Positions 2,159 through 51,249 of a DNA stretch of 64,000 bases are shown piece by piece. Location: positions 6,326,001 to 6,390,000 of the forward strand of contig NC_087252.1 in the NCBI RefSeq assembly GCF_037042905.1, in the 5' to 3' direction. Source of the DNA: Lytechinus pictus. Its lineage: Eukaryota. Every line of letters starts with the position of its first letter. Position 1 is the stretch's first letter. The position numbers and the translations under genes are program-made. The notes below the pieces were generated by a model, which was given only the letters and a program-made list of their open reading frames with translations, ran no database searches and was not told the origin of the DNA.

Positions 2159-4507
2159 ATTATTTATTTATTTATTTATTTAAAACGGTTTAATTCAACA
2201 AGGGTGTCTATAGCGGCTGAAAAGCCGAATTGCATTACCCTTTACAATCATTTACATAAAAAATACAATCAAAATCAAACAAAGAACAACTGAATTTACA
2301 CGAATTCTACATCTTAAATACACTTATATCACGATATAAATTAAATTAAATAATAAATTGATACTGATACTGATAGTACATGCATTTGTTGTAAAATGTT
2401 GTTAAAAAATCGTACAGATTAATTAAAAATTAACATCTGAATGGCAAGACTCGTTTGTTTTCTTTCCCGTAATAATCCTGATTAAAAATGTTATAATGAA
2501 ATAATAGTTGTTTACTCAAAGCAAAGGACAGAGAGAGTTACAATGGAAATTAGAAAGAGAGAGAAATTGAGCGAAAATCAAAGAGAGAGAAATGAGGGGA
2601 AAGAGGGAGAGAGAAAGGAGAAAAGCAACGAGGTGAATTGAGATAGTAAAAAAAGACAGATTGTCATAAAGAGAGATTGCGAGTGTACAACAGATGGATA
2701 CGTTATTGATTGATTGCACTTCCTATATAAAATTTGAGAATTTACAAAACAAAAAAACGTAACTCCAGTCATGTAAATGAACCTAATGTACAGCTACAGA
2801 GGCCTGTGAAATGGATCCTGTAACCAAGGGCAAGACAAAAGAACGTAAAACAGTCTTAACATATGAATTCTTAGCAAAGCGTCATATATAAAAATTAAAA
2901 AGAGGCATAGAAAGTAGAGATAGATAGATAGATAAAAGGCTAAGTATCTAAGGGATAAAATGGAGAAGGGTAAAGCAAGAAATGGAGCTAGGAAGAGAGA
3001 GAAAGGAAAGAAACAAAGAAAGAAAGAAAGGGAGCTTAAGAAGGAAAGAATGAAAGAGGGATAGAAAGAAAGAAAAAAAGGAAAGAAAGAAAGAAAGAGA
3101 AAATGGAGGAGAGAGAGAAACGAAAAAAAACAGAGAGAAGAAAAAAATTAGTAATTATTAAAAGAATTAAGTTAATGAAAACTGGAAGAAGAGAGGGAAA
3201 GAAAAGAATGAAATAGGAAACCAAAAGAAAAAAAAACGAAGAACAGACAGAAATGTAGACTGAATTAAGAGAGAAGATGAAAACTTATTAAGTGGATAAA
3301 AAAAAAAGACTAAAGGAATTCAAACGTATAAAGGATGAGGGAATTAGAAAGACGCATGCACTGCAAGCTGATTCACAACATGTGGTTGAAAATATATTAA
3401 TTACAGTGAGAATTCAATAGTCGGATTAGATATGGCAAAGGACTATTTCTATGCCTAACAGTTTTACATTGCACTTCGGTATATTTGTTATTGTTTCTGA
3501 GATTCTTAGAGTGTGATTCACCGCGTGTTTGGGGAAGCCAATGTCTGAACCTCGCGCTAGGACCCAAGAGTCTCTGCGCGAAGCTGAGACAGAGGCATTC
3601 CCTGCGGTGACTCAGTTTTGGCAAACGGCACCGCTGGAGAGCATTCTCGTAGGAAGTGTACTGAAATCCTAGAATCATGCGACACGCGCGCTTCTGAATA
3701 CGTTCAATTTGAACAACTTGGGTAGAAGTTAAGCCCGAGCTCCACACGGGAGCGCAATACTCGAGCACCGGTCGAATGTAAGAAACATAGATTTTAACCA
3801 AATCGTCAATTGGCAGTCGAAACCTGATTAGATTTCGCAGCATGTGCAGTCTCACGTTTGCCTTCCTTACCATTTCATTTACATGTGAAGACCATTTAAG
3901 ATCACTCTGTATATTAACCCCTAGTAACTTTATACAATCTGTTTGAGTAATTTCTTGACCCTCAATTAATAAAATTATTGGCAGAGGAGGGTTACGCATG
4001 AACGTTACTGTCATACTTGAACATTTCTTGGGATTCAGTTTCATATTATTATTGAGAGTCCATTGTTCTAACTCGGTCACACTTGATTGGATATTAGATG
4101 GAGCGGACGATTTTCTACTCTCCAACAATGTGAGGTCATCTACATACTTCCAGTAGGATGGGGGATTAGGACTGTTGCACGCATCGTTGATTATTGCAAG
4201 GAAAACAATGGGGCCAAGTCTTGTCCCTTGTGGAGCACCTGTATTAACTTCTAGCCAATCAGAGAAAGATGTGCGATACTTTACGCTCTGTTGTCTGTTG
4301 TTCAGAAAGTCCGCTATCCACGCGATAGCGCTCGGGCGGACGTTCATTTGAAGCAACTTGGCAATGGCTATGTTGTGGTTAATCCTGTCGAACGCTTTGC
4401 TAAAATCAGTTGTAACAATCGTGGTGATCATTTTCGACTTTTCTGCGTTACTGTGGATCATCTGAAGTAAATCGATCAAGTAGTGCGAGGTTGAGATTCC
4501 CTTCGTG
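2159..4507 (-). mobile_element. 5'-truncated CR1/L2-group non-LTR retrotransposon
   Basis: RT-encoding ORF 3397-4479, then a long pyrimidine-rich 3' UTR on the minus strand ending in an (AAAT)n-type tail at ~2159-2180. Boundaries approximate. Confidence 0.75.
3397..4479 (-). CDS. LINE reverse transcriptase (ORF2 C-terminal part, 5'-truncated)
   Basis: Motifs DFSKAFD, GAPQGTRLGP, YVDD, NNMKLNPKK, KLLGV, IRPVLEYCAPVW and IERIQKRA are typical of CR1/L2/Jockey-group RTs. No internal stop over 360 codons. Confidence 0.9.
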   Translation of the reverse strand: MIDLLQMIHSNAEKSKMITTIVTTDFSKAFDRINHNIAIAKLLQMNVRPSAIAWIADFLNNRQQSVKYRTSFSDWLEVNTGAPQGTRLGPIVFLAIINDACNSPNPPSYWKYVDDLTLLESRKSSAPSNIQSSVTELEQWTLNNNMKLNPKKCSSMTVTFMRNPPLPIILLIEGQEITQTDCIKLLGVNIQSDLKWSSHVNEMVRKANVRLHMLRNLIRFRLPIDDLVKIYVSYIRPVLEYCAPVWSSGLTSTQVVQIERIQKRACRMILGFQYTSYENALQRCRLPKLSHRRECLCLSFAQRLLGPSARFRHWLPQTRGESHSKNLRNNNKYTEVQCKTVRHRNSPLPYLIRLLNSHCN

Positions 4508-7500
4508 TTTTAAGTTTTTTAAGTGGTTTTTAAGTGGTTTTAATTTCTTTTAGCCTCATTTTTTTTTCGTTTTCCTGTAGAAGTTAATCTTGTCGTTTTG
4601 ACTTTTTTTCATGCCATATTTATGCCGTACTTATTCATTTATTTAGAAATCAGAGTAAATATGGTTGGGTTGTTTATTCGCTGAGTATGGTTTATTATAA
4701 TATCAAAACTTTATTTTTTGTTTTCAGTTCCTTTTTGGGCTGTGTATCAAGGTGCCAATATAAATGATGTATTATTTTAGGAAAGTTTAGAAGTCAACAA
4801 AAAAGAGTAAAGTCTGTGGTGAAGAATATGACCTGAGTCAGCTTTCAGCATCTCCTTCTCACTTTGTCTCCAATCAAAATGTTTCCTGTCACTTAATTAA
4901 CGATCAAAACAAGCTGAGAAATTTAGCTCTTTTTTACTTCAAAAGCCCAGGAACTTTTCTCCAGGGCCCCAACCTAATTTAACCCCCGCCCGAACTCGCC
5001 CCCTTTTCATCTACTCTCCCATGGGACAATTTCATTACTTTGAAAACAAAATTAATAATGGGTCATGGGGTCACGGTGACTCACGTAACATTAAGGGAGC
5101 CTCATATTGATATCTTTATTCCGCTCATAAATATGTAGGCCCCACTGTTGCATAAATAAATGAAATTGATTATATTGACGATATTGATGAGCAGTGCACC
5201 CTCTTCATTATTATCATCATAATAGATAATCATAATGATGATGATGATAATAATAACAACAACAACTATAATAATAGTCATGGAAACAGGTATTATAATA
5301 ATGATTAAAATGATAGTGAAACAATATTTTTATTTATGATGATGTCGAGGGAAAAAAGAAAGAAAACGGAGGGAAAAAAGGAAGAAAGGAAAGAAGACAA
5401 ATAAGTAGGAGAATAATGATAATGATAATAAAATAATAATAAGAAGAAGAAGAAAAAGAAAGAGAAGAAGACATAATTTAGCTCGCATTATGTCGACTCA
5501 TAAGGACTTAATTTGCGATACACTCTAGTTACTAAATCTTAGGGTTCGTTTTCATAAAGAGTTATATTTTCAATCTTTTTATCACAGATGAGATTGTGGA
5601 AATAAATGTATAAAGAGTACTTAAACCACTTAGTTTATTTAAGAAATGTAATTATATCGTGATTATAGAACGAAATGTAAGCGATATGTACACGAACAAC
5701 ATTTCCCTCAGCATATTATCATTCCTGGCGGTCTGTGGCAATTCTAATTAACCCAACACTACCCAAAATTCATAGAGGAGACGTTCAAATCATACTATCA
5801 ATTTTCAAACTTGTTTTTTCTTCACACTGTTAAATCTTTCATTTTGAGCAAGATTGTAGACGTGGCATACCCGAATAGCTTTAATTGTGTGTAAATTAAA
5901 ACGAGACAAAAATCGAGTTGGTTATCAGCCAAATCTGAGGATTTTGTTCAATAGAAGAGCTTCCTGTTCAGGGATAAATCAAAATGAGGGTAGGATAAAG
6001 CCGCCCCTTGATTTGACGGGGTGTCACCCCCGTTAAAGGGGGACTGTCCTCAGTGGAGGTCACTACACAGTTTAGGGGTCTCAAACTATGTGCTGTAGAC
6101 TAGTCTTGATACATAAACCTTTGATGGAATGATGTAAGATGTGATAATTTTAGTATCAATTATTATTATTATTTGACAGTGTTTGATGTCGGTCAGAAAA
6201 TGAGAATACTGAAAAAATGAACTCAGATCCTTTTGTTCATTCTTGTACGATTGTTCTAATTTTGACAATCGTTATACTGAGTTTATATACTGCACGACAA
6301 CTGTGTGTGTAGCTGAAATGTTTTTTTTATTATTTTAAACACTCTTACAACTTTTTCAAAACTATTTTAATGCTTAAACTTTTTTCAAACAATTTAATTG
6401 TTTAACAGCTTAATTTTTAAACTTTTGAAAATAGTTATTAGTGTGTCAGGCTTAAACAACATGCTTGAAATGTTAAACAACGTTTTATAACAGATGTTCA
6501 TTGCTGCTATTGTCTCTGTCTCTATGTTGAAAATAATATGATTCAACAAATGAAACGAGTTTTAAAAAATCGTGAATAATAAACCATATCCCCCTAAAAA
6601 ACCACGAAAATATAAAAATAAAGATAAATATTAATGATAATCCGACATTATTCGCAGGGAATTTGTGGGTGAGATGTGAAAGAACGGAGTGAGGGAGAAG
6701 GGGAGAGAGAACTTTTGAGAGGGGGTATAGAGAGAGAGAGAGAGAGAGACGTTGGGCCGCGGGGGGGGGGGGGTTGAGAGGAAGCGGGGGCGAGGCGATA
6801 GATAGATAGGGAGAAGCAAGAAATCATAAAGTTTATTTCCTCATACATGTATTGATCAATGCCTTTTGGACAGAATCCCAATATGTGGTAACATCATAAA
6901 CCTCAATCTTGGCAAAGAATCGTTTGAATACAAACAAGTACGTGAGACAAACAACTTCTAACGGATTGCGAATTAAAATTATTAAATCAGATTATGCCAT
7001 AATCATTTATTCTCGATAAAGTCGCTATACCTATAAAATCATTCATAGAAGTAATATGCCACAAACATTTTATTTCATAAAATATCTTTCCACTTATCTG
7101 TCAGTGAAACTTGTTTTTAATCAAAATATGATGATAGATATTGATCAAATTTACAGAAGGGACGATTTAAATGAATATTTATACTGTATATATTTTTTTT
7201 ATAAAAACATATAACACTCTTAAAAAGGTTTGGCAAAAAGGCGAAATTTTTAACCATCACTGGGCAACATATTGTCCACACAACTATTGGTTAAAATCTG
7301 TCCAAATTGGATAATAAAAACTAATAATTGGGTAATAAATTTGCTCAATTGGATAATAATTGCACCAATATATATTTTTACCGACATACATTACCCAACA
7401 CAGTGGACAGTATCTTGCCCAATATTTGAAGCGTGTATGGTGAAATTTCCGTTTTAGCTCAAAATATTGGAATTAGCTTGAACATTAAGGTCGTGAATGC

Positions 7501-12476: not shown

Positions 12477-12908
12477 CTACGTACAAGGAAATAAAATACG
12501 AATATATTATTACTCATAAAATCAACAAAATTTAATTTAATCAGATAAAGACTAAGATACATTTATAAATCTGATTTGCTGATATTGTGATGAAATCTCA
12601 TTGTTGATTGATTTAAAGTTTCCATTATGTTTTTTTTATAATTCTGTTTCACCGTACTAAATAAGATGTTGCAAAACAAGAGTGGAATTGGAAGCTACAA
12701 CATGTAGACCTATGTTGAAACAGATTTTATGTGTAGATTTTTTATGTGTTCTCACAAATTTGGAAAATTTTGTGCAAATCCAGAACGCATAATTTTTATT
12801 TCTTATTTGTGTAAGGCAGAATTTTTCCCTTTTTTTTCTTGGTTGCAATGAAATTTGATTGCAACTCTCATTGACATTGCTGAAGAAAAATATGTGAGGG
12901 CAACTGAC

Positions 12909-13219
12909 CTGCAACTAACTTCCATAGGATCGACCCAAAGAGTCAATTCTGCAGGCAAGTTGAGGTGATTGTAATGGATTCCGCAGTCTTTGGCAGTCTT
13001 ACTGATGACACTGTCCCTGGGCTCGTTTCGGCTGACACGAATGCAGCGATACGCTTGTCCTTTCGAGGGCTTGTCTTCGTACCAGTGATTTCTGAACTTC
13101 TCAACAAGAGTCAACGCTAACTTCTCTGAGAATTTACTTAACTGTTCAGCTGTCAGGCTCGTGTTTCTCTTCACGATCCTCGTCAGAAATACAACTGCTG
13201 CGGCTATTTCGTCCTTCAT
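12909..13219 (-). CDS. BTG4: BTG3/BTG4-family (maternal B9.10/B9.15-like) protein, coding exon 1 of 2; BTG/Tob domain; full protein 221 aa
   Basis: MKDEIAAAVVFL...HWYEDKPSKGQAYRCIR (box A)...LPAELTLWVDPMEVSCR (box B). 311-nt exon with donor AG|GTCAGT at 12907-12908. BTG3 versus BTG4 orthology is not resolvable by eye. Confidence 0.92.
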
Positions 13220-13619
13220 GTTGTCAGCTATGTCTGCATGAATGTGAAATCTAACTCCAAAAGTATCAATCCCAGTGCAAAGTTCCACGTAGTCTCTCCG
13301 TGTAATGTATCAAAATATTAAGGCCTCGGGCTCGCTGGAACGAAATTCCTTTGTTGTGTCAAGCTGATCAAAATCGCAAATTGCGCTAAATCTTCGAATC
13401 CTTCAAAAGGCAAATTTTGACTGTAGTGAGATAAAGACAGGATGAACAGCTTAAGATGACTGGTTAGGGCTGTTTGGAATGTCTTTTTAGAAGAACGACG
13501 AATAATCTGCAACGTATTCGTGACTCATTCTTAGAACACAAATTCACGGAAGACGAACGCGAAGCGAGTGAGCAAGCTATGACAACAACTCACAACAACA
13601 GCTGAGCAGCTCCGCGCGT

Positions 13620-19334: not shown

Positions 19335-20063
19335 TCAGCTAACAAACCCTCTCGAGAGGTTTGTCATCGCTTCAACAGCCATAGCCATTCTATCGTCTTC
19401 CAAACCAGGATAACGGCTCCTTATCTCATCTTCACTCGTCATCAAGCTCTTCACATTATCTATACCCTGAGGTGAAAGGTCACCGCTACCAGGTTTCTTC
19501 GGAGTTCCTTCTTCGCCGCTCCTCTCCTCCTCGACATCAACGCCCTGCAGCTGCTCAATAGGAAAGACATGAGTCTGGTGATCGGTTCTAAGCTCCTGAT
19601 GATATTGCACCTGAGAGAGTGGATATCCACCGGTCTCTAATGTCACCTTTGACCCTGACCTTGTCATCGACGACATATCTTGGATGTTCTTCGCGATGGC
19701 GTGAGCACTGTCCTGATCCTGCACAATGTTATACAACCCTGTCTCGTTGGACTGGACAGGTCTTTCTTTGGCACCGATGGCGCTGTTCAGGTCTTCGACA
19801 TCGAAGACTCTCCTCCCGGATTCGTTTGCGTTTTTCAGGTCCAGGGTGTAATCCACGATGATGACTGATCCTTGGGAATCTTCTACATATTGCACCTTGC
19901 TGGGTTCAAAGTTCACTTCATCACAGAACCTTTTATTGCTTGGTTCGAGGATCTCTTCCTCCGGTGAAGCTGTCTTGCTAGCCTCAACATTGACTTTCTC
20001 AGGGGAACCCTTCTTTCTTCTCTTGGTCCGTCCCTTCCGTGGTGACCTTCGTTTCTTAGTTGC
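19335..20063 (-). CDS. HINFP: HINFP coding exon 10 of 10 (729 nt; basic NLS-like stretch and acidic low-complexity tail)
   Basis: Acceptor tatcctcAG at 20064-65. Phase 0 matches exon 9. Open to the stop at 19335. Confidence 0.8.
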   Translation of the reverse strand, partial: ATKKRRSPRKGRTKRRKKGSPEKVNVEASKTASPEEEILEPSNKRFCDEVNFEPSKVQYVEDSQGSVIIVDYTLDLKNANESGRRVFDVEDLNSAIGAKERPVQSNETGLYNIVQDQDSAHAIAKNIQDMSSMTRSGSKVTLETGGYPLSQVQYHQELRTDHQTHVFPIEQLQGVDVEEERSGEEGTPKKPGSGDLSPQGIDNVKSLMTSEDEIRSRYPGLEDDRMAMAVEAMTNLSRGFVS

Positions 20064-20407
20064 CTGAGGATACAAAAAGAGCATGTTCAACTTCCAAAAT
20101 GTCAAATGTTTAATAATCTCATGAGGTTAAACAAGTTTCTTTATTGTCAATGGTAAATATAGTATTTCATAACATGTACCTATGGTAACAGATGTCAACG
20201 GAAGTGAAACAATTGCCACTGGGGACAAGTAGCCTTTACAGACAGATTCTATAACATTTTAGGTGGCCACAAAATACAGGTTTTCATTACAGGTAGGTGG
20301 CCACTATGGCAGGTTTAACTGGATATGATTCTACGATAGTGCCCCTTCAAAGTTACGATTTCAAAATTGAGTTTGAATTGTAAAATCTAGCATAACTTCC
20401 GACTCAC

Positions 20408-28606: not shown

Positions 28607-28910
28607 ATAAAATGATTTAGTGAAATTTCATATGAAACGCCTTAGAATATAATTCTCTACCATCATGGAAATTTTGTCACAATCACCCAGGCAATCCACA
28701 AACCATGTGACAAATCTAAAAATACCTCTGGACAAGTATTGGTTCAAAAAATCTTGCTCAGAAGGTACATTTCATGAACAGTAAACTTCAAACCTCTTTT
28801 GTCATTGAAATTGTGCTCCCCTGATTCAGCTAATTTTTTTATAAATTTTGACAGGTTATTAGAATTTTTAGATAATAATGGCTGGCTCGTGTTGGGCTTT
28901 GAGCTCTTAC

Positions 28911-29134
28911 CGTGCAGTCGTCCCAACTACATACAAAAGAACTTGGGACTTCAGGGATGATGTTTCTACTGTGGGGTTCCAGCTGACATGTTTCTATTTT
29001 GCACCGTTCTCTTTCTACAGTCCCAGCCCATTTGATCCGTGTATGGTAGCCATGGAATAACAGATGCCTGAGCAGAGCTCCCGATCCTTCGTTAGTCACG
29101 TATCCACAGTCATCCCACTGGCATTGGTAGTCAT
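28911..29134 (-). CDS. HINFP: HINFP coding exon 2 (224 nt)
   Basis: YQCQWDDCGY...LLRHLLFHGYHTRIKWAG...SRNIIPEVPSSFVCSWDDC; GT-AG flanks; phase 1 to 0. Confidence 0.93.
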
Positions 29135-29730
29135 CTAACATAAATGAGAGAAACAGTACTTAGTGATGATTTTAAAATAAATTCTGGTACCTGAACGACA
29201 GAAAACAAAACATTCACAGAATTGAACAAAACTTACAAGAATTATAAAAATTATAAATAAATGGTATCTGCCAAATGTTTATTTTTGGATCTAAATAAAA
29301 ATTCTAGCGAATGATTTATACTTAAGGATTGCTTCCAACCATTTCCTATCAAAAATTGTTTTCTATACTACAACTCAAACTTAGCTTTAAAAAATGAAGG
29401 AAAACAAACTTGACATGCATATTCTACAACACAAGGGAGAGGGGATTCTTTATGTCATATCAATTTGTATCTTTATGGAAGAAAAGTACCTGATCAAATA
29501 ATACCAATCATCAAAAATATTTCTGCCTTGTAATATTACCAAACCAAACTCTCAATAATTTTTTGAAATAATGCTTGTAATTTTTTAAAGCTTTCTCTTT
29601 GTCTTCCATGTCTGGGTACACTTCTATTCTATGATTTATCTACCGTTTACAAGCACATTATTACTCAAAATAACAGTCCTTCTTTCACAATTATATACTT
29701 TATATGCAATGATGGATGAACTATGATTAA

Positions 29731-39922: not shown

Positions 39923-41604
39923 CTGTATGAAAAAAAAGAAAGTAGATTGCTGATTGCTTAACCCTAATTAGGCCGGGGTATTTTGGGAGATCATACGAGC
40001 TCTCGGCCCTCAACCGCGCGTTCGCGCCGATAATTGGCACGTAGGTTGCCTGGGACATAATCTTCAAAATTATAGTAATTTGATGCAAATTGCTATTAAT
40101 TAATCATGCTAATATATGCAATTAGTATGCAAAATCATACTTTTTTGCATATAACTCCCTAAATAACGCTCCAGATGTCCTGATTTCTGGTGTAGGAACT
40201 CTTTGTTGTTTTCATAGCAAATGTATGGGTCATTCCACGGGGTTGGGGCAACAGCACTTTTTTGTGTTCCCTATGAATTGTTGGCTTTATCCTGAAAATG
40301 TGTTTGGCGTTTGGATGTTGCAATGTGGTTTTGTTGGAAGGCAGTTATGTAAGCAATTACTTGATGCAGAAATAAAAATGTTGAACCTCAAGTATTTTTG
40401 ATGGTGAGACTTTAAATGATGATGTCCAGACTCTTTTTTGGGGTACCAAGTGTGACATCCAAAATGGTAATTTTCAGTTGAAGATATCTAATTAAAAGAT
40501 AAACTTAGTCAAATTCAAATGGCCATGATTGATAAAGCAACATTTGTTTAATAACAAAACAGTAATGGGATAGCAAATGAAAAGAGGCTTCATATCATAA
40601 ATCATTCCTACAACATCGCATACCACCGTTACATGCGATGTCCGCGTTTATTTTTTTCTGTAACGGCGGTAAAGTGGTAAATAACTAAAAGTCAGAAATC
40701 ATTCTTTCCAAAGTTATGTGTCAGAAATAAAGGGCAGGCAGTAAGCAACTTTTCATCAAAAGATTAGCTTTGAAAACCAATGTTAATGTCATGTAAATTA
40801 ATCGAAGTTCGCCGATGTTTTGGGCGATGTCCGGGCCAAATTTGTAACGGTGGATCACATTTCATCGCGTATGTAAAAAGGAGAGACCGGAGAAGAGACC
40901 GTCGTTGTATCAGACGGACGGGATGTTAGCCGAAATCCACGTGCACATGAACGGCTATGATATCGGGTGTTTTGCAGCATTGCAATTGGGAATCTTCCTG
41001 CAATGTCCATGTAACGGTGGATTGGATCTCCACGATGTTTTCCCTTTCAAAGCGACGTAAGTACGGAGATTTATCCCGATACTCGTATTTTTAAATCAGT
41101 TAAACCTTATCTTAAAAATGTGAAACTATATTATCATGCAGAAAGTGTTTTTAAGTTTGAAAAATCTCGCTAATTTTCCATAATCTTTTACTACAGTCCC
41201 ACATGTATCTTTTCGTGTAAGTGAAATATGTGATTGAGACATCGCCGTGTTTGTTCCAGATTTGCTAAACGGCCCCAAAGAAATAATGTTTTTATTACTG
41301 TGATTCCATGCAAACATGTTTTGAATGTTAGCTGACATGATTCAATCGCAATTTAGTTGATTTTTTTAAACACCGAAATATGTTATTTCAATAGGCCAAT
41401 GGATACTCAAAACCGCTGATGATCATGCTGACATCTCAGATTTGGTACAAAATCTCGCGGCTTTCTCGCCTTGTTTAAATTGGCTCCTACTGATTCTACG
41501 TAATATGGGTATCAAAGACCTGATGATCAAATTTGAATTTCCCCCAAAAAATGAGAGTTTAGAACCAGTGGCAGCGCCACGGGGGAGGCAGGCCCCCCCC
41601 CCCC

Positions 41605-41652
<48 letters not shown>

Positions 41653-42620
41653 GTCAGCTGATCCCAATCCGAAAGGGGGGGGGGGCAAAATAATTTTTAT
41701 GTTACTACCCCCTACACATAGTACATGTGCTTTGTGTATGATGAAGCATGGCCATAATCCAATTACTAGTCATTCTTGGCTGTAGGCCTAACCTTCCCAA
41801 AACTTTTCATCTTGTTGAATGTTATACTTTTCAGCACATTCTTTTTTTCTCTCAATATTTTTTCAATATTTTGTATTTTGATGTCTATATATTAAATTGT
41901 AAGGAGAAGGGGGGGGGGGTTTGTTTTATCAGAAAGCAAAACTGTGTGATTGTTTTCAATGTGATTTTTTTTTATTGCAATATAATGAGATTTTTAAAAC
42001 ATGTACAAGTGAACAAAAGAAAATGTGACACAATCAAGTTTTTTTCACAAGAGTTTATTTGCTGTATCAGAAGGTAAATTGCAGATTCGAATTCCATTAA
42101 TTCATTTAATTCCAATAGAACATACATATATTATGTAATTGCTTGAACAATTAAACTTCAGCGATGAAAATTAAATAAGATGGTTATAAAAAACTAAATG
42201 GAATTGTCTAGATAACCACCCTTGATTAGAATGCAGAATAGAATTAGATTAAATTAATCCATTGAGAAATGAAATTGAAGTACAGATAATTTATGAAAAG
42301 GTAATGGGCAAGTAATTGTATTGTGAAAACAAAGTAGAACACAACAACACAAATACAAAAACCTTCTATAAAACGTAACTTTATATTTAATTTATGAACT
42401 ATGAAATGATGAATTCTATTTGCTATGAAAAAATACAAAGTGAAGGTTCCTGTGTATTTTGCAAGAACAGATCAGATTCATTGTCCCTAGTAATCCACCC
42501 CCTTTAATGAGAAAATGTCAAGACATAAATAACTAAATGATTTGATATAATATAAAAAATATTTGCTTATTGCTTAAAAAATATAGTCAAACTTCCAAAT
42601 ACTATTTTTCTCAACTACAG

Positions 42621-42785
42621 GTAGCCTCTGTTCAAGGTGAAAATGTATATCTTCAGTACATGAAGTGTCAATCTGGTGACCTGTACTCCTGGCCTGATGG
42701 CGAGGCACAATTCTACCTCCATCCACTTTGTGACATTGACAGAATCCTCTTCCAAACTTTCTTATTGGGTCACCAGTCTTCTTGA
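42621..42785 (+). pseudogene. Remnant coding exon inside the Sola2-like element
   Basis: Acceptor tttttctcaactacAG, then VASVQGENVYLQYMKCQSGDLYSWPDGEAQFYLHPLCDIDRIL, resembling the V..M......Y.WP...I segment at the C-termini of some transposon proteins (from recall). Confidence 0.4.
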
Positions 42786-43731
42786 AGTTCATAAACTTGT
42801 AACCTGAATGAAGAGAGAAATATTGCATGTTAATTTTAATAGTCAGGTTTAGTGTACAGTGTAATACATTTTTTTGCATTTGCCAGTAAGAAGTTTACTG
42901 AAGAGTTCTTGCAGTTTTATTTTTGAACATTAGAATAGCTTAGTACATTTTACTTTCTTGCTTACAACTCTGTTAAAAAAACAGAAGATATAAAGGTGGT
43001 GAGTTTTTTTAATTTAATTTGTCCACTAAGTACTTTACAATTGTCCTTTTCGCATGTTGAAACTTAATGTTTTATCTAATGTATGTAAGTTCCAGTGATG
43101 ACATGATTATATTTTAATTAATGTCACTTCTACACTACCATTTTGAGGACATGATGTCCATGTAACTGAGGTAAAACAAATTAGAGCTAACAAATTGAAC
43201 AAGTTTATATGTGTAAGGTATAAATGCGTTGTCCATGTCTATGCCAACTTTGTCTTGTTTTGTCTTGAAAAACCATAGCTTAGAAGAACTAAACTAGTAC
43301 CTTTTCCCTACATATTTTTTACCTGAATATTGTATCAAAGGTATCAAAAAATTTTATAATTGTGTATGAATAAAAAAAACATTTTACCTGTTCATTGATA
43401 TGAATTACAGAAGCTTGCTTGTAGATGTTGTATTTCTACACTTGAGTAAGATGAGTTAACTTGCATTTAGTGTGTTGATACTAGAAAAATATGTCAAATA
43501 TTCAAGTAATGCTATTCAATATGACCATTACAAGGACATGATGTCCGTGTAACAGAGGTATCTACATTTGAAAGTAATATCTTGAAGGAGATATTTCAAA
43601 GTAATAAAAGATTTGGAGATCGTAAGATAGCACTGTTTCGTTTTTTCCCCTTTAGAAAGAAACATAAATGTTTCCAGAGACAGACGGAAGTGGAACCTTG
43701 AGGATTAGTATGATTTTAAATGTCAATATTG

Positions 43732-44506
43732 AATAATTTTGTACATTTTTCCTTGTTTAAACTCTAATTTAAAGTGCTTTTACTTGCAAAGAATTTGACA
43801 TGCAAAATGTTTTTCTTCTAGTGTAATCAATTGAACTTGTGCAAATATTCTAAGGCAGAAAGGGTAATTTGGTATGTAATGACCATTAATGGATCTTAAC
43901 TTACAATGCTTCAAATTATACCTCTGTTACAGAGACATGATGTCCATGTAACGGTGGTAACACCAAACAAAAATAGAAGGTTAGGCCAGAGAGAGTAGTT
44001 GAGTTTTTCCAAAGAGAATATTCCATTCTGTTGAGGCATGACTTCTCTCAACTATTTAGTTCTACATGCCATCATAAATTGAATTTTCTTGACTGGTGAG
44101 AAAAAAGAACGACACATAATTTGTCAATAATTTTGTAAATTTTTCTTTGTTTAAACTCTAATTTAAATTTCTTTTATTTGCAAATAATTTGACATGCAAA
44201 ATGTTTTTTTTCTAATATAATCAATTGATCTTGTGCAAATAATTGAAGGCAGAAAGTGTAATTTGGTATGTGATGACCATTAATGGACCTTAACTTACAA
44301 TGCTTCAAATTATACCTCTGTTACAGAGACATGATGTCCATGTAACGGTGGTAACACCAAAAATAGAAGGTTAGGCCAGAAAGAGTAGTTGAGTTTTTCC
44401 AAAAAGAATATTCCATTCTGTTGAGGCATGACTTCTGTCAACTATTTAGTTCTACATGCCATCATAAATTGAATTTTCTTGACTGGTGAGAAAAAAGAAC
44501 GACACA
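43732..44506 (+). repeat. Tandem duplication of a ~394-bp unit
   Basis: 43732-44116 and 44126-44506 align throughout; their 3' halves are nearly identical. Confidence 0.92.
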
Positions 44507-45928
44507 GAACATGGCACTGGTATACACACAGAGCATCAAGTTCCATTTATTGATGCTAAATCTTTCAAAATATATATGCCATGTTGGAAAATGTGGAATA
44601 AATTGACTAAAAATGTTGTTAGCAAAATATTTATTAAGAGGAATTGAGATCAACCCTTTTATTTTGACAGTAGGAGAGTATAGTCTAAGTAAGGATGATA
44701 AATGATGTCCGTGTAACGGTGGTATTTTGCCAAATCTTGTTTCGCAACTTACTCAAATATGCAGGGTGGTATGAAATGCCTGTAAGTGGATTTAGTTGAA
44801 GAATTGTCCCATGAAACATATAAGAAAAAAAACTTTTCATTTATTACATTTCTATTTTTTGACCCTGATGTCACAATTTTTGCCCCAACCCCATGGAATG
44901 ACCCGTATGTGAAAAAATTGCAATATTAGATCAATTTCTTATGTAATATACTGTTTTTTGCAATTTCTTATGTATTTCTTTTTTTTACCTTTAGTTTTTA
45001 TATATATTTTTTATATAATACAAAAACGATACTGATTGAGGTGTCATGAAAAAGTATATTTTCTGATTTTGCAACACAAAAGTTTTAGTTAAAATGAAGT
45101 AATGGTGAAAAGCAAACAATGGCTGAAAATCATTTGGCACCCAGCAGAAAACTAAAGTCATGAACTTGTAAAAAAATTATGATAATCATTTTGCATCTTT
45201 GGACAAGATAAAATCTGAATTTTCTTGCCACAATGCAAGATCAAGCCTTCCAAGACAAAAATTATTTTAGGAAACTCGATAAAAAGTCACTGTGATAATC
45301 ATGCCAGGGTACCACCTCATAAATAGGCTAATCAAGCCGGAAAATCATGACAATAAAAAAATCACATGGTTTAAATTGTTGGGCTTGCTTGTTGATTGGC
45401 CCAAAGATTGAAAAATGGCAATGGATACTCCCTAGTTCTTCACTTTTGAACTAATTTCTCCCTCCCCCACCTCCTTTCTCGCCTCATCTTCTTATCCCCG
45501 ACCACATTTTTCTGCTTTTCTCACTCTTCTCTTGTTCCTCCTCCCTTCTGACCCTGTCCAAGCCTGAGATTGTCTCAGACAATGACAGAGATCTAGAAAC
45601 CGTTCTCAATACCATCATAACTAGTTTACTGGAATAAGTGGAAACTAGTTCAGTCATGTTAATTAGAGGAAACTAGTTTAACGTGTAATGAGAGCGGTCT
45701 TGGAAGCGATCTTCCAAACCGGTTCAGAAAACCACCTCGCGATTTGTTTTGAGAATAAGTGAGGACACAGCCAAAGCCGCCTTTGGGAACAATCTTCGCA
45801 CATTTTCGAGCGCGCTAGTCGCGCTACTCCACACACTGTGACTGCATTAACTGTAATGTGGAATGACCACGCCAAGGTTTCAAATTTCGCGCGAAACATG
45901 TCACCCCACTGAGAGTGTTCCCATAATA

Positions 45929-48900
45929 GGGGAGACTGGGGTTAGTTGGAACATTTTTGACAAAAATGGCTGTAAAATCGAAATTGATTTTATTCGAGAA
46001 ACAATCAATATATCAGCTTGAAGCATATATCTAAGGGCTTCAAATGTACCCCATAAAATTTTTAACTCTATTATGGTTACTGAAAAAATCCACCTTGAAC
46101 GAGACCATTGCAAACGTTCCAACTTACTCCAATACGGGGTAAGTTGGAACATAGTATGGGGTAAGTTGGAACACTGCATGGTCAATTAAGAATTATACTA
46201 AAACTACTTAAAACTGTAATATTACATGGTTTTAGCCTATTTGCTTTATTTTATTCGAGTTCAAAATATTAAAGTGTGGATTCATTGAACTTTAAGTTTT
46301 CTATTATACAGCCACTCACGCAAGCAGACTGTGTTGTAGAATTCCGCATATTTGGGTGCGTTTGATTTTACATGCAATTAAGTGTACTATCAGCAATTTC
46401 ATGTACTTCTGCATCAAATCTATAAGACAAAAGATAATTGTTTATATTTTTTTCATTAATTAATTATGCAAATAAGCTTATAAAATTTGCCCTAAATTTG
46501 TTTTTTTTTGGGTATGTGCCTTTAACTCTATTTATTAAGCTAGTAGAATGCTAATTTTTGGTGAGAGTATCAATTTTCACATTTATAACAAATATCCACC
46601 AAAAATTGCAAAAGATATAATTTCTTATGCATATTTTGTTTGTTTTATTTGTATTTTTGTTCTTTCGAACCTTTGTTTTTTCCGATGAACTTTGTCGGGA
46701 GTCTTTTGCGATTATGAATAGCATAAAATGAATCTATTTGAACCAACAAAAGTAAAAAAATAATCATACATTTATGACTTTTGGTTGAAAAACACAATTT
46801 GCATTGACCTTGTACATGGAATCATGTTTTTGAACAATTTTGGGTCCGAACATGCACATACAAAATGTTGCGTAATTTCAAAACCGCGCACACAGTCACA
46901 GGCATCGCAAATTTGGTCTCAAATGATGCGCAAGACTTGAAAGTAAAAAGTCAGCGAGCAGTGTAGTAAAAAAATTTCACGCGACGGCGTAGTGACGAAA
47001 TTTCTTGAGGGGGGGGCTCAAATTGACCCCCCCCCCCCAGTTTGATAAGGGTTAATATTGCATTAGGTGCCTACAATAGGCCTTAAATGCACACTCAGAC
47101 CTAACTAATAAACAAAACAAGCATGGTAATACAATACATGTTCAGAAGAGTGTGAAATACTTAAAGTTGAATTAAGAAGACGATTCCAAATATTGAGATA
47201 TTTACATTAATAGCAACCTTACAACCCCCCAAACACTAATAGGTGATTCGACCCCCCATTTTCTTTTTTCAAAATAGTGAATTTAAACGATTTATCCCTA
47301 CCCATTTTCCCTGAGTTCGCTCCTGCAATGCCTACCGAGACGGGTGTTCTTTGAGTGTGACGTCACCGGGGGGTATTCGGTCCCAGTTTAGTAAACAAGG
47401 CAGTGCCGTTTTGTGTACTACTATGGAATAACTGCAGTTGAAGTTGTATCTGCGAGCCATAGAACTTGCAAAGAGGAAATGATTAAAATATTTGTGGCCG
47501 TACTATTATTCCAAATATGTGAATTCCCTCAGAATGATACCATAGACCCTAAAGGAATAATTTCAAGGTGAATAATATGAAATTTGATCGAGATCTTCTC
47601 ACCAGTCGATAACGTAGCAGACGTGTTATTATGACATATTTATCCGCGTGTGACGCGGCTCTTGCAAAAAAACACAGTTGGTTGCGGAATTGCTTTGTGC
47701 CGACCGGCCGCCCGCTCCGGCGCAGCTAGCTGTCGAGCTACCGTACCGTTCTTGTTGTCTTCAACCATAGAGATGTATACTAATTACTATATATCTTTCT
47801 GTCTTCAACTCACTTCCGAATTGCGTTTGTATGTGTGACGGTGACCCCTAGCGTAATTAAATATAGAAAACAACTCAGAAGGCCGAGAAAGAATACTATA
47901 CGTTTGGTTCAAGATTGTTCTGTGGAATGAGCTATGAGTGGAAATGATCCAGAGGATATAAAAGTGGAGTCAAAGACAAAAGAAAAGAAGAAAAAACGCC
48001 AGGGGATCGCTGCACGGCCATGAACTAAGTCGACATACCAGACCATAACAGTACACTCAAATGCCTGGGTGTTGTGTGTACTAGTATTATGCGTTCAGCG
48101 CGCGCTGAGCTAGCCGCCGGAATTACTTTCCAGCTACTCACTTGATTGAACATCGTGATAAAATAAATGAGAAATAGTGAAAATATCATTCAATAACTCA
48201 CTGTTTGCTATCTTACATCATGATTGAAGAGTTCATGGTGGTTATTCATACTGTTTTTTATACAGGGAAAGTAAAGATTTGTACATATCAGTCCTATTTG
48301 TTTGATTTGAGTTGCTTTGAAAAAAAATTGTAAAATATCTTTCTCTCTCTGCATAGCATTTCTGTATGACATTCAGGCACCTCTTATACTAAATTCCCCC
48401 CGGTGACGTCACACTCCGAGTGACTTTTCTGTACACTCGTCTCTCGGGCTCTGACAGGTGGCTAATTTCATAGACTTTCAAAGCAAAATATCGAGAAGGC
48501 AGAGGATTATTGTGACATGCTATGTGTTTGAACAACTTATATATACTATATATTGTATGTAGAACCTATATTTATGGAAACTCACCCCCTTCTTAATTCA
48601 ACTTTAATGTATTTTTTTTCTCATATCCAATGTTTTTATTCATAATTATGTTTGGGGTAAGTTGGAACATGTTCCAACTAGCCCCTTCAATTTTGTTCCA
48701 ACTAACCCCGGAGGCCCATTTGACGTTTATAAGCTTACAGCACAAAAAAGGGACTTCACCATGGCATATTAATAAACTCATTTTGTAGCTTGGTATAAGT
48801 GTCTATTATACCCCCAAACTGGCCAACTTGATCTATAAAGTTCTCTGAGATAATTAAACAGTTCTGAAAGAGAAAAAAATTACTCAGAAAATCAAAAACC

Positions 48901-49076
48901 AAAAATTCCTTTCAAACTTCACCAGGCTTGTGGCACATGTGTTGTCTGTAATATGGTGGATGGCTGTTGATAATGAAAATAAATTGAGGGCAGTATTGCA
49001 GAAATTTGTTTAAAGACGTTAAAGAAAATTACAATGTTTCAACTTACCCCGTGTTCCAACTAACCCCGGTCTCCCC
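45929..49076. mobile_element. pogo/Tc1-mariner-like MITE split by nested insertions (arms 45929-~46270 and 48608-49076)
   Basis: TA|GGGGAGACTGGGGTTAGTTGGAACA ... TGTTCCAACTAACCCCGGTCTCCCC|TA, with repeated GGGGTWAGTTGGAACA motifs in both arms. Confidence 0.8.
47165..48603 (+). mobile_element. Kolobok-like non-autonomous element, copy 1
   Basis: 15-bp TIR AGTTGAATTAAGAAG, TTAA at 47161-64 and 48604-07, internal inverted motif GAGTGTGACGTCACCGGGGG. Confidence 0.88.
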
Positions 49077-49080
49077 TATA

Positions 49081-50935
49081 GTGCTCAACTACACCAAAAG
49101 CTTCGGTCTCTGTTATATTGGTTGTTCCGCTGAACTCCGTTAATGGTTGGCTCCACTCACCAATTACAGAGACCGAAGTTCTAACTCGATCTGTAAGGGG
49201 ACTCAATGGCCATATGTTTATTGTATTAAGTTCGGATAAACCAGGAAGTGGGAATTGCGCGACAGCCGAATTAAGTCACTGTTTTTCCCCCTTTTTAAAG
49301 TTGAATTAAGAAGGGGGTGAGTTTCCATAAATATAGGTTCTACATACAATATATAGTATATATAAGTTGTTCAAACACATAGCATGTCACAATAATCCTC
49401 TGCCTTCTCGATATTTTGCTTTGAAAGTCTATGAAATTAGCCACCTGTCAGAGCCCGAGAGACGAGTGTACAGAAAAGTCACTCGGAGTGTGACGTCACC
49501 GGGGGGAATTTAGTATAAGAGGTGCCTGAATGTCATACAGAAATGCTATGCAGAGAGAGAAAGATATTTTACAATTTTTTTTCAAAGCAACTCAAATCAA
49601 ACAAATAGGACTGATATGTACAAATCTTTACTTTCCCTGTATAAAAAACAGTATGAATAACCACCATGAACTCTTCAATCATGATGTAAGATAGCAAACA
49701 GTGAGTTATTGAATGATATTTTCACTATTTCTCATTTATTTTATCACGATGTTCAATCAAGTGAGTAGCTGGAAAGTAATTCCGGCGGCTAGCTCAGCGC
49801 GCGCTGAACGCATAATTAGTACACACAACACCCAGTCATTGAGTGTACTGTTATGGTCTGGTATGTCGACTTAGTTCATGGCCGTGCAGCGATCCCCTGG
49901 CGTTTTTTCTTCTTTTCTTTTGTCTTTGACTCCACTTTTATATCCTCTGGATCATTTCCACTCATAGCTCATTCCACAGAACAATCTTGAACCAAACGTA
50001 TAGTATTCTTTCTCGGCCTTCTGAGTTGTTTTCTATATTTAATTACGCTAGGGGTCACCGTCACACATACAAACGCAATTCGGAAGTGAGTTGAAGACAG
50101 AAATAGTAATTAGTATACATCTCTATGGTTGAAGACAACAAGAACGGTACGGTAGCTCAACAGCTAGCTGCGCCGGAGCGGGCGGCCGGTCGGCACAAAG
50201 CAATTCCGCAACCAACTGTGTTTTTTTGCAAGAGCCGCGTCACACGCGGATAAATATGTCATAATAACACGTCTGCTACGTTATCGACTGGTGAGAAGAT
50301 CTCGATCAAATTTCATATTATTCACCTTGAAATTATTCCTTTAGGGTCTATGGTATCATTCTGAGGGAATTCACATATTTGGAATAATAGTACGGCCACA
50401 AATATTTTAATCATTTCCTCTTTGCAAGTTCTATGGCTCGCAGATACAACTTCAACTGCAGTTATTCCATATGAAGGAGTACGTGCATAGTACACAAAAC
50501 GGCACTGCCTTGATTACTACACCGGGACCGAATACCCCCCGGTGACGTCACACTCAAAGAACACCCGTCTCGGTAGGCATTGCAGGAGCGAACTCAGGGA
50601 AAATGGGTAGGGATAAATCATTCAAATTCACTATTTTGAAAAAAGAAAATGGGGGGTCGAATCACCTATTAGTGTTTGGGGGGTTGTAAGGTTGCTATTA
50701 ATGTAAATATCTCAATATTTGGAATCGTCTTCTTAATTCAACTTTAAGGTTATTTTTTCCCGTTTTTGGTGCATTTCAGGTCAAAACAGAATTTTTTTGG
50801 GCCCAGTTCTTTTTTTATGAAATAAAGAAAAAAATTTATGAGCCCCATCGGGGCTGCACGATAGCGAGCCGTCTGTGTACGAGGAGAAATTAAAAAAAAA
50901 TGTTAAAGAACTCCTCGAAACAGACAGCTGTCTAT
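49081..50935 (+). mobile_element. Unclassified MITE family (CCAAAAGCTTCGGTCTCTG end), interrupted by Kolobok-like copy 2; other copies at ~25622-25700 and ~55980-56260 (minus)
   Basis: The terminal sequence is shared by three loci, and 50880-50930 matches the reverse complement of 56115-56175. Confidence 0.55.
49299..50743 (-). mobile_element. Kolobok-like non-autonomous element, copy 2 (inverted relative to copy 1)
   Basis: Near-identical reverse complement of 47165-48603, with its own TTAA flanks at 49295-98 and 50744-47. Confidence 0.88.
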
Positions 50936-51249
50936 ATATAACAACAATACTGCTTTACGTGAAGTAGTTTCGAAAACCACTCTCGGTGATCAAATGAAAT
51001 GCCATGGCATGGGAACGCGAGAAAAGCCAAAGGCAAATAATAAGTTTACGCCGCCATCTTCCCCAACGTTACGGACGCGAGCGTAACGTTGGGGAAGTAC
51101 AATAAAAAACAAGATGGCGGCGTAAACATATTTTCAGTGTCCAAAACTGGACAACTCTCCCCTTTTGGACACTGAAAATGTACCCCAAAACATCTCTTTT
51201 TGCTCATTCTAATCATATGACAAACGATTCATCATTGATATAATGTTGT

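What the first reader, a model, noticed from the sequence alone, without database searches (positions are those of the whole stretch)
43130..44725. Regularly spaced array of ~41-bp palindromes inside a Sola2-like transposon
Seen: an imperfect palindrome (best copy tacctctgttacagagacatGatgtccatgtaacggtggta, 43919-43959) recurs with cores at 43147, 43534, 43933, 44327 and a half copy at ~44698. The spacings are 387, 399, 394 and 371 bp. Only one spacer pair is an obvious duplication; the others look unrelated by eye while the palindrome stays conserved. Inference: the motif is under constraint, for example as a periodic transposase or accessory-protein binding array, or as recombination sites that add ~390-bp cassettes. 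It resembles a repeat-spacer array, but in a eukaryotic DNA transposon.
Basis: partly seen in the sequence, partly recalled or inferred. Interest (0 to 1): 0.72.

Follow-up and report, generated by a model that had tools for sequence, protein, structure and literature searches.

The report
Nucleosome-spaced motif lattice in a transposon
A gene-less jumping-DNA element in an animal (sea-urchin) genome carries a conserved two-part DNA word about every 194 bases at one end and every 388 bases at the other, counted from its tips, which suggests docking sites for its transposase laid out to fit between nucleosomes rather than a CRISPR-like cassette array.

Summary
The array is real. It lies in the non-coding right arm of a 4,678-bp non-autonomous TIR transposon (25-bp TIRs, 4-bp target duplication, a transposase-like last exon; Sola2 not proven). 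Units 3 and 4 come from one tandem duplication of about 394 bp whose breakpoints are mid-spacer. Three of four public runs show the four-site form, with the same spacers. This rules out cassette-adding recombination sites. Right arms are 18-20/21 identical while flanks are at background; spacers keep only faint homology. The conserved unit is a bipartite word, not a hairpin, and it also occurs at the left end. New here: the eight independent sites lie 194, 410, 599, 775 bp from the left tip and 200, 571, 970, 1357 bp from the right, a 194.5-bp lattice (0 of 20,000 random placements; found post hoc; weaker with the second box). Promoter nucleosomes in sea-urchin ovary are reported 193.4 bp apart, but bulk values are 218-250. 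Best reading: docking sites for the transposase or a partner, spread by duplication and kept in nucleosome register. Binding is untested. The scan earlier noted evenly spaced palindromes in another genome's transposon (e1-7359146), not this motif.

The parts
40223..40226 (+). Left target-site duplication (GTAT)
   Evidence: Same 4 bases at 44905-44908
40227..40251 (+). Left terminal inverted repeat, 25 bp
   Evidence: 24 of 25 identical to the right TIR
40419..40427 (+). Left site L1: first box only (ATGATGTCC), 194 bp from the left tip
   Evidence: This 9-mer occurs 6 times in the element and 0 times elsewhere in the window; weakest site
40621..40671 (.). Left site L2: inverted pair of second boxes with one first box between, first box 410 bp from the tip
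40824..40853 (+). Left site L3: first box and second box 10 bp apart, 599 bp from the tip
41002..41020 (+). Left site L4: full half-site, 18/20 identical to the right arm of P3, 775 bp from the tip
42621..42802 (+). Remnant last coding exon of a transposase-like protein; frameshifted near 42758 in the window, open in the copies of runs X2 and X9
   Evidence: 24/39 identical to P0002; one extra base behind 42758 in X2 and X9; 'transposase C-terminus' is recalled, no Pfam hit
43133..43173 (.). P1: palindrome with intact right arm and shortened left arm (11/20 paired)
43520..43560 (.). P2: palindrome (14/20 paired)
43732..44116 (+). First copy of the tandem duplication (second half of spacer 2, P3, first half of the next spacer)
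   Evidence: 93.8% to second copy over 388 columns; differences listed
43919..43959 (.). P3: best palindrome (16/20 paired)
43899..44109 (-). Better-conserved block around P3, bounded by minus-strand acceptor-like and donor-like words; unexplained
   Evidence: 3 differences in 211 bp inside vs 16 in 174 outside between the two copies; X9 6/181 vs 73/826; splice words
44117..44125 (+). 9-bp junction between the two duplicated copies
   Evidence: joint 44125 to 43732 seen only in run X15
44126..44506 (+). Second copy of the tandem duplication, containing P4
44313..44353 (.). P4: identical copy of P3, made by the duplication
44702..44724 (+). P5: half-site only, 200 bp from the right tip
   Evidence: 19/20 identical to the right arm of P3
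44880..44904 (-). Right terminal inverted repeat
   Evidence: contigs of X1 and X9 end within 2-4 bases of this tip
44905..44908 (+). Right target-site duplication (GTAT)

Best explanation
The element is a non-autonomous, internally deleted cut-and-paste transposon. Its 20-bp bipartite word (a 7-bp box and an 11-13-bp box) is a binding site for the cognate transposase or a partner protein supplied in trans; head-to-head pairs would bind dimers. In the right arm the sites multiplied by tandem duplications of about 390 bp; the window holds the latest one. Selection kept the word while the spacers decayed. Sites at both ends sit at multiples of about 194 bp from the tips (left 1,2,3,4; right 1,3,5,7 and, after the duplication, 9). 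The most likely reason is that they lie in linker DNA of phased nucleosomes, one site per nucleosome on the left and one per two on the right, so the protein can load on chromatin and pair the ends. Shown: anatomy, constraint on the word, duplication history, the lattice as a sequence pattern. Inferred: the binding protein, nucleosome phasing, and any role in transposition.
For: Word confined to the two arms of the element: 11 vs 0 and 6 vs 0 hits. Arms 18-20/21 identical, flanks at background. Arms vary within a consensus independently of their partner: P3 left is 18/20 to P2 right but 16/20 to its own partner, and P5, L3, L4 have no partner, which fits a protein site and not a hairpin. None of the 29 listed between-run differences in 42900-44125 falls in P1-P3 (P about 0.05; only 40 of 174 substitutions and 12 of 70 indels were shown). 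Lattice: mean cosine 0.94 at 194.5 bp with phase zero at the tips, 0 of 20,000 uniform placements, 9 of 20,000 when only the left sites are randomised; holds without the weakest site or with a fifth left site (34 and 7 of 6,000 with the right fixed). Left spacers are unrelated to each other (10 pairs, largest z 1.6), so duplication does not explain the left spacing. The newest duplication kept the period (chance about 0.03 under an assumed log-uniform length). Promoter nucleosomes in S. purpuratus ovary average 193.4 bp apart (10.1101/2025.05.12.653534, section 6). Reiterated subterminal motifs are protein-bound in CACTA and Harbinger elements (PMC2613891, PMC9710019 passages).
Against: No binding or nucleosome data were seen. 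The lattice was noticed post hoc on eight sites of one family; left gaps range 176-216 bp; measured on the second box it is not significant (368 of 6,000; 1,511 of 6,000 with the right fixed). Other sea-urchin repeat lengths are longer: 218 bp gastrula, 240 bp sperm (PMC12961432 passage), about 250 bp on gels of ovary chromatin; 190-200 bp is also a common animal value, so the match is not specific. Faint spacer homology means duplication history alone can explain the right-arm regularity. No clear GC phasing at 194.5 bp (0.26-0.35 across ten bins). No autonomous parent or full transposase was found.
Confidence: 0.45

Rival explanations
1. Ordinary subterminal binding sites whose right-arm spacing is only a relic of old tandem duplications of a 390-bp unit; the shared 194-bp register with the left end and the tips is coincidence.
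For: Residual homology S1-S2 (1 of 400 shuffles; first half 4 of 5,000, and 2 of 1,172 and 5 of 1,060 real window segments) and S0-S2 (3 of 400); P1 and P2 share the same shortened left arm; a young duplication of the same size is present. The second-box version of the lattice test is not significant.
Against: The homology held in only 6 of 10 scoring schemes and in 2 of 6 spacer pairs. It does not explain why unrelated left spacers give half the right period, why both ends start at 194-200 bp, or why a non-homologous duplication again measured about 394 bp.
Confidence: 0.32
2. The word is bound by a host factor (for example a Myb-type or other transcription factor), or acts in a spliced antisense RNA that starts near the right tip, and regulates expression or silencing of the element instead of end pairing.
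For: Minus-strand donor, acceptor, donor, acceptor words alternate through the right arm (44752, 44499, 44298, 42820); the block between acceptor and donor is better conserved than other spacers; P3 folds at -16 to -19.5 kcal/mol as RNA. The second box resembles a Myb-type site (recalled, not tested).
Against: Two donor and two acceptor words in 1.75 kb have a chance of about 0.05; the putative exon has stops in all three frames near its start (read); half-sites cannot form hairpins; the word has 0 hits in 59.3 kb of host DNA in the window; no Rfam family reached its threshold. No RNA was examined.
Confidence: 0.15
3. The palindromes are recombination sites at which about 390-bp cassettes are added, as in integrons or CRISPR arrays.
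For: Repeat-spacer look; unit number differs among copies (five sites in the window and X15, four in X1, X2, X9).
Against: Breakpoints of the one added unit lie 173-223 bp from any palindrome; the added DNA copies its neighbours; all four runs cover 28-30 of 30 bins with the same spacers and no joint or loose end among those shown indicates a new spacer at a palindrome (38 loose ends were not shown); no spacer matches elsewhere in the window.
Confidence: 0.02
4. A neutral old tandem repeat with no constraint on the word.
For: Faint spacer homology.
Against: Arms 86-95% identical next to flanks at background; the same word at the opposite end with variable box spacing.
Confidence: 0.04

Closest known systems
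CACTA (En/Spm) subterminal repeats bound by TNPA, e.g. soybean Tgmt* (PMC2613891, passages read)
   Same: Asymmetric ends with few sites on the left and more on the right; a bipartite word (7-bp plus 10-bp sub-motifs there, 7 plus 11-13 here); direct and inverted copies forming palindromes; kept in deletion derivatives.
   Different: CACTA repeats are dense (24 in 732 bp, 4 in 159 bp); here sites are 176-400 bp apart with unrelated DNA between and reach 1.36-1.75 kb inward. Termini and TSD length differ (3 bp there, 4 bp here).
Harbinger3_DR Myb-like protein and its 9-bp subterminal motif (PMC9710019, passages read)
   Same: An accessory protein binds a reiterated subterminal word and recruits the transposase.
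   Different: No Myb-like gene was found here, the TSD is 4 bp, and the passages read describe no long regular spacing.
CENP-B boxes in human alpha-satellite dimers (PMC8997354, passages read)
   Same: A transposase-derived protein binds a site every other nucleosome-sized monomer; sites lie between positioned nucleosomes; dimers can loop two sites.
   Different: That is a homogeneous centromeric satellite bound by a domesticated protein; here the spacers are mostly unrelated and the array is in the arm of a mobile element, anchored to its tips.
Sola2 superfamily (PMC3627910, passages and supplementary alignment S10 read; the defining paper was not held)
   Same: 4-bp TSD, short TIRs, families known from sea urchin (names ending _SP in the alignment).
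   Different: Diagnostic transposase core is deleted here; the passages read mention no internal motif array.
IS607-family ends (PMC6188088, abstract read)
   Same: Several transposase dimers load on multiple subterminal repeats, unevenly on the two ends, to pair them.
   Different: Bacterial serine transposase, no TIR or TSD, no chromatin.

Membership tests
Cut-and-paste TIR DNA transposon (non-autonomous) | Terminal inverted repeats | tested here: met
   25 bp, 24/25 identical
Cut-and-paste TIR DNA transposon (non-autonomous) | Target-site duplication | tested here: met
   GTAT on both sides
Cut-and-paste TIR DNA transposon (non-autonomous) | Dispersed multi-copy family | tested here: inconclusive
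   No genome held. Contigs of X1 and X9 stop within 2-4 bases of the right tip, as expected when flanks differ, and variant contigs coexist; no copy count
Sola2 | 4-bp TSD | tested here: met
   feature per PMC3627910 passage, whose examples are AT-rich; GTAT is 3/4 AT
Sola2 | G-rich first bases of the termini as given in the defining paper | tested here: inconclusive
   Termini begin GGG; the rule is recalled, the paper was not held
Sola2 | Sola2-type DDD transposase core | not testable with these tools
   Core deleted; only a last exon remains. Its one credible relative P0002 is an unnamed fragment; the published alignment stops 19-196 residues before the C-terminus in the animal sequences; no Pfam, PDB or Atlas assignment
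CACTA-type protein-bound subterminal repeats (works-like) | Word reiterated at both ends and absent from host DNA | tested here: met
   11 in element vs 0 outside
CACTA-type protein-bound subterminal repeats (works-like) | Dense clustering within a few hundred bases of the tips | tested here: not met
   Sites 176-400 bp apart, up to 1,751 bp inward
CACTA-type protein-bound subterminal repeats (works-like) | Binding by an element-encoded protein | not testable with these tools
   Needs the autonomous parent and a binding assay
Integron or CRISPR-like repeat-cassette array | New units inserted at the repeat, with foreign and copy-specific spacers | tested here: not met
   Mid-spacer breakpoints, local copy, same spacers in 4 of 4 runs
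Integron or CRISPR-like repeat-cassette array | Known RNA repeat family | tested here: not met
   2 Rfam matches, both far below gathering score
Foldback (sea-urchin TU type) element | Long inverted arms built of tandem repeats | tested here: not met
   TIR is 25 bp; no long inverted match between the arms

The most novel reading that the evidence does not exclude
This transposon family encodes its chromatin layout in cis: transposase or partner docking sites are set on a nucleosome-repeat lattice measured from both tips, one per nucleosome at one end and one per two at the other, and the arm grows or shrinks only in whole dinucleosome steps. That would be a sequence-readable ruler for how a transpososome assembles on chromatin.
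Probability: 0.35. Interest if true: 0.75.

Novelty: new variant of a known kind. Interest (0 to 1): 0.52.

Why it matters
Subterminal binding repeats are well known, but they are described as dense clusters near the tips. A sparse array at nucleosome-scale spacing, anchored at both tips and kept through a fresh duplication, would show a transposon shaped by the host's nucleosome spacing. It makes an open question directly testable: how do transposases pair ends that are wrapped in chromatin? Shifting spacers by half a period against a whole period, or mapping existing sea-urchin MNase data on the family, would answer it. If the lattice is coincidence, the element is still a clear case of a binding word surviving while its spacers decay.

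Tried and rejected
Half-site pattern scans: 4 metagenome, 0 viral and 2 prokaryotic-genome matches, all single hits with no further similarity. TIR-word scan of viral contigs: 17 loci, none with a second box or a BLAST match. Protein route: 4 hits at E 0.001 or better, of which 3 were repetitive and unrelated and only P0002 aligned residue by residue; three homologue searches gave nothing new; viral loci none; phage records none; Atlas best scores under 0.9; PDB best E 1.9; the model of P0002 had mean pLDDT 42.7 and was not searched. Rfam: nothing. Tandem Repeats Finder did not list the array. Inverted homology between flanks: 16 comparisons, smallest p 0.04. Helical phase rejected: the gaps are 36.9, 38.0, 37.5 and 35.3 turns of 10.5 bp (arithmetic). 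Hairpin or cruciform role rejected as the general function: no partner arm at 4 of 9 sites and no co-variation. A likeness of the palindrome core to steroid-receptor and p53 elements was considered from memory and not pursued: lone first boxes at the left end do not form such elements. Coding exons inside spacers: no convincing frame among 69 of at least 35 codons. Net length conservation across P1-P2 in X9 (831 vs 826 bases with 63 gap letters) is suggestive but was not tested. Only 41700-44125 was laid on runs, so the left end, P5 and the TIRs were seen only through overhangs. Literature searches that found no description of such spacing; most subscription papers and Repbase are outside the library, and bioRxiv supplements were closed (Supplemental Table 2 of the MNase preprint was not seen).

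Full report
Observation. Pairing between arms is 11, 14, 16, 16 and 5 of 20. The word is specific to the element: ATGATGTCC 6 inside and 0 outside, TGTAACnGnGG 11 inside and 0 outside.

The element. It spans 40227-44904, with 25-bp TIRs (24/25 identical) and the 4-bp duplication GTAT. A plus-strand exon at 42621-42802 is 24/39 identical to one unnamed protein fragment, P0002, the only credible hit of 4 in 1.84 billion representatives. Its reading as a transposase C-terminus is recalled; no library named it. It is frameshifted in the window and open in the copies of runs X2 and X9. The array starts 330 bp after its stop codon, so it lies in the non-coding right arm. A 4-bp TSD agrees with Sola2 (PMC3627910 passage), but the diagnostic core is deleted and the defining paper was not held. 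That the host is a sea urchin rests on earlier notes for the same genome, not on a test of mine; the window itself shows an animal-type, intron-rich sequence with a BTG-family gene.

History of the array. P3 and P4 come from one tandem duplication, 43732-44116 and 44126-44506, with 19 substitutions, one 4-bp indel and a 9-bp junction. I laid 41700-44125 on 4 of 20 listed runs, one for each organism code. All four cover 28-30 of 30 bins. The duplication joint appears only in X15. In X1 an 810-base contig and in X9 a 585-base contig run from P3 on for 400 and 402 further bases, against 398 expected to the tip without the duplication, and X2 shows the start of the last spacer directly after 44116. 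The older form therefore has four sites, 387, 399 and 371 bp apart (P = 0.0015 for uniform placement). X1 matches copy 1 at 43774 and 43783 and copy 2 at 44014 and 44047, which fits a later contraction, though other histories are possible. Breakpoints lie 173-223 bp from the nearest palindromes. Spacers are the same in all runs. This is not cassette addition at the repeats.

Constraint. Right arms of different units are 18-20 of 21 identical; the next 20-bp windows are 1-10 of 20. Of 30 local spacer comparisons only the two duplication pairs score high, and S0-S2 slightly exceeds its shuffles. Lenient global alignment finds faint homology for S1-S2 (1 of 400 shuffles) and S0-S2 (3 of 400) and none for the other four pairs; the S1-S2 first-half signal holds in 6 of 10 scoring schemes. 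So the right arm probably arose by old duplications, but the word has been kept while spacers reached near saturation. Of the between-run differences shown (40 of 174 substitutions, 12 of 70 indels), 29 fall in 42900-44125 and none in P1-P3 (P about 0.05, with a biased listing). Arms vary around a consensus without co-varying with their partner, which points to a protein site, not a hairpin.

New observation. The two boxes also occur at the left end, singly, as an inverted pair and with box spacings of 1, 10 and 15 bp. Distances of the first box from the nearest tip are 194, 410, 599, 775 on the left and 200, 571, 970, 1357 on the right with the duplication removed (200, 571, 965, 1364, 1751 in the window). 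These fit a 194.5-bp lattice with phase zero at the tips: left multiples 1-4, right 1, 3, 5, 7. Mean cosine is 0.94; 0 of 20,000 uniform placements reach it with the period searched over 120-520 bp, 3 of 20,000 with free phase, and 9 of 20,000 when the right array is fixed and only the left is randomised. It survives dropping the weakest site, adding a fifth left site or using site centres (0 of 6,000 each; 34, 7 and 25 of 6,000 with the right fixed), but not when measured on the second box (368 and 1,511 of 6,000). It was found post hoc. Left spacers are unrelated (10 pairs). A preprint on S. purpuratus ovary gives 193.4 bp between promoter nucleosomes (10.1101/2025.05.12.653534, section 6), but about 250 bp and a 400-bp dinucleosome on gels (passages); a review gives 218 bp for gastrula and 240 bp for sperm (PMC12961432 passage). 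The match is suggestive only.

Mechanism. Most likely (0.45) the word docks the transposase or a partner, and spacing is held in nucleosome register so that sites stay in linkers while the ends are paired. Next (0.32), the same sites with spacing left over from duplication. Third (0.15), a host factor or an antisense RNA: minus-strand splice-like words alternate through the arm (chance about 0.05) and bound a block that is better conserved than other spacers (3/211 vs 16/174 between the two copies; 6/181 vs 73/826 in X9). This block is unexplained. Cassette addition (0.02) and neutral decay (0.04) are rejected.

Comparison. It works like CACTA subterminal repeats, which are also bipartite, palindromic and asymmetric but dense (PMC2613891 passages), and like the Harbinger Myb-protein motif (PMC9710019 passages). 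The spacing recalls CENP-B boxes in every other satellite monomer (PMC8997354 passages). Seven library searches found no description of sparse, nucleosome-pitched sites in a DNA transposon; the library lacks most subscription journals and Repbase. The scan has one similar note from another genome, 25 evenly spaced palindromes in an 11-kb transposon (e1-7359146), which I could not check; look-ups by sequence and by relatives returned nothing.

Verdict. Real, constrained, not a cassette array. A new variant of transposon subterminal binding repeats, with a tip-anchored 194-bp lattice that is statistically clear in one family but functionally untested. Interest 0.52.

Noticed in passing
window 45926-49079 and 47160-50748: An element with 28-bp TIRs and reiterated 17-21-bp subterminal repeats (45926-49079) is interleaved with a near-perfect 1.45-kb inverted repeat (47160-48607 and 49295-50748) whose loop holds the element's right end. 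Simple nesting cannot give this; it looks like an inverted duplication or inversion next to a transposon end.
   Followed up: no
window 43899-44109 (and 44293-44499), minus strand: Block around P3/P4 bounded by strong acceptor-like and donor-like words, conserved about as well as the coding exon, with stops in all frames; with a donor word at 44752 and an acceptor word at 42820 it may outline a spliced antisense RNA that overlaps the last coding exon.
   Followed up: partly
window 43207-43299, run X15 record 13: A low-depth contig carries a piece of spacer 1 joined at 43299 to the TIR of the neighbouring element family (45926 type), i.e. an insertion of that family into a copy of this element.
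   Followed up: no
window 41567-41700: GC-rich segment with poly-C, 41-base poly-T and poly-G runs that looks like the end of another small element; run X9 has it joined to the same neighbours, so it is part of the family, not private to this locus.
   Followed up: partly
window 41236-41245: A possible fifth left site: a variant first box on the minus strand about 1,010 bp from the tip, 40 bp off the lattice.
   Followed up: yes
window 12803-13309, minus strand: BTG-family coding exon (Pfam PF07742, E 1.9e-39).
   Followed up: partly
window 3397-4509, minus strand: 370-codon reverse transcriptase frame of a LINE remnant (PF00078, E 1.2e-23).
   Followed up: partly
window 28839-29159 and 19335-20126, minus strand: Probable exons of a zinc-finger-like host gene (likeness to HINFP is recalled; no Pfam hit).
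   Followed up: no
window 51033-51126: Long imperfect hairpin around 51040-51125 that contains the only other GTAAC-type word with a GG tail seen near the element; probably unrelated.
   Followed up: no
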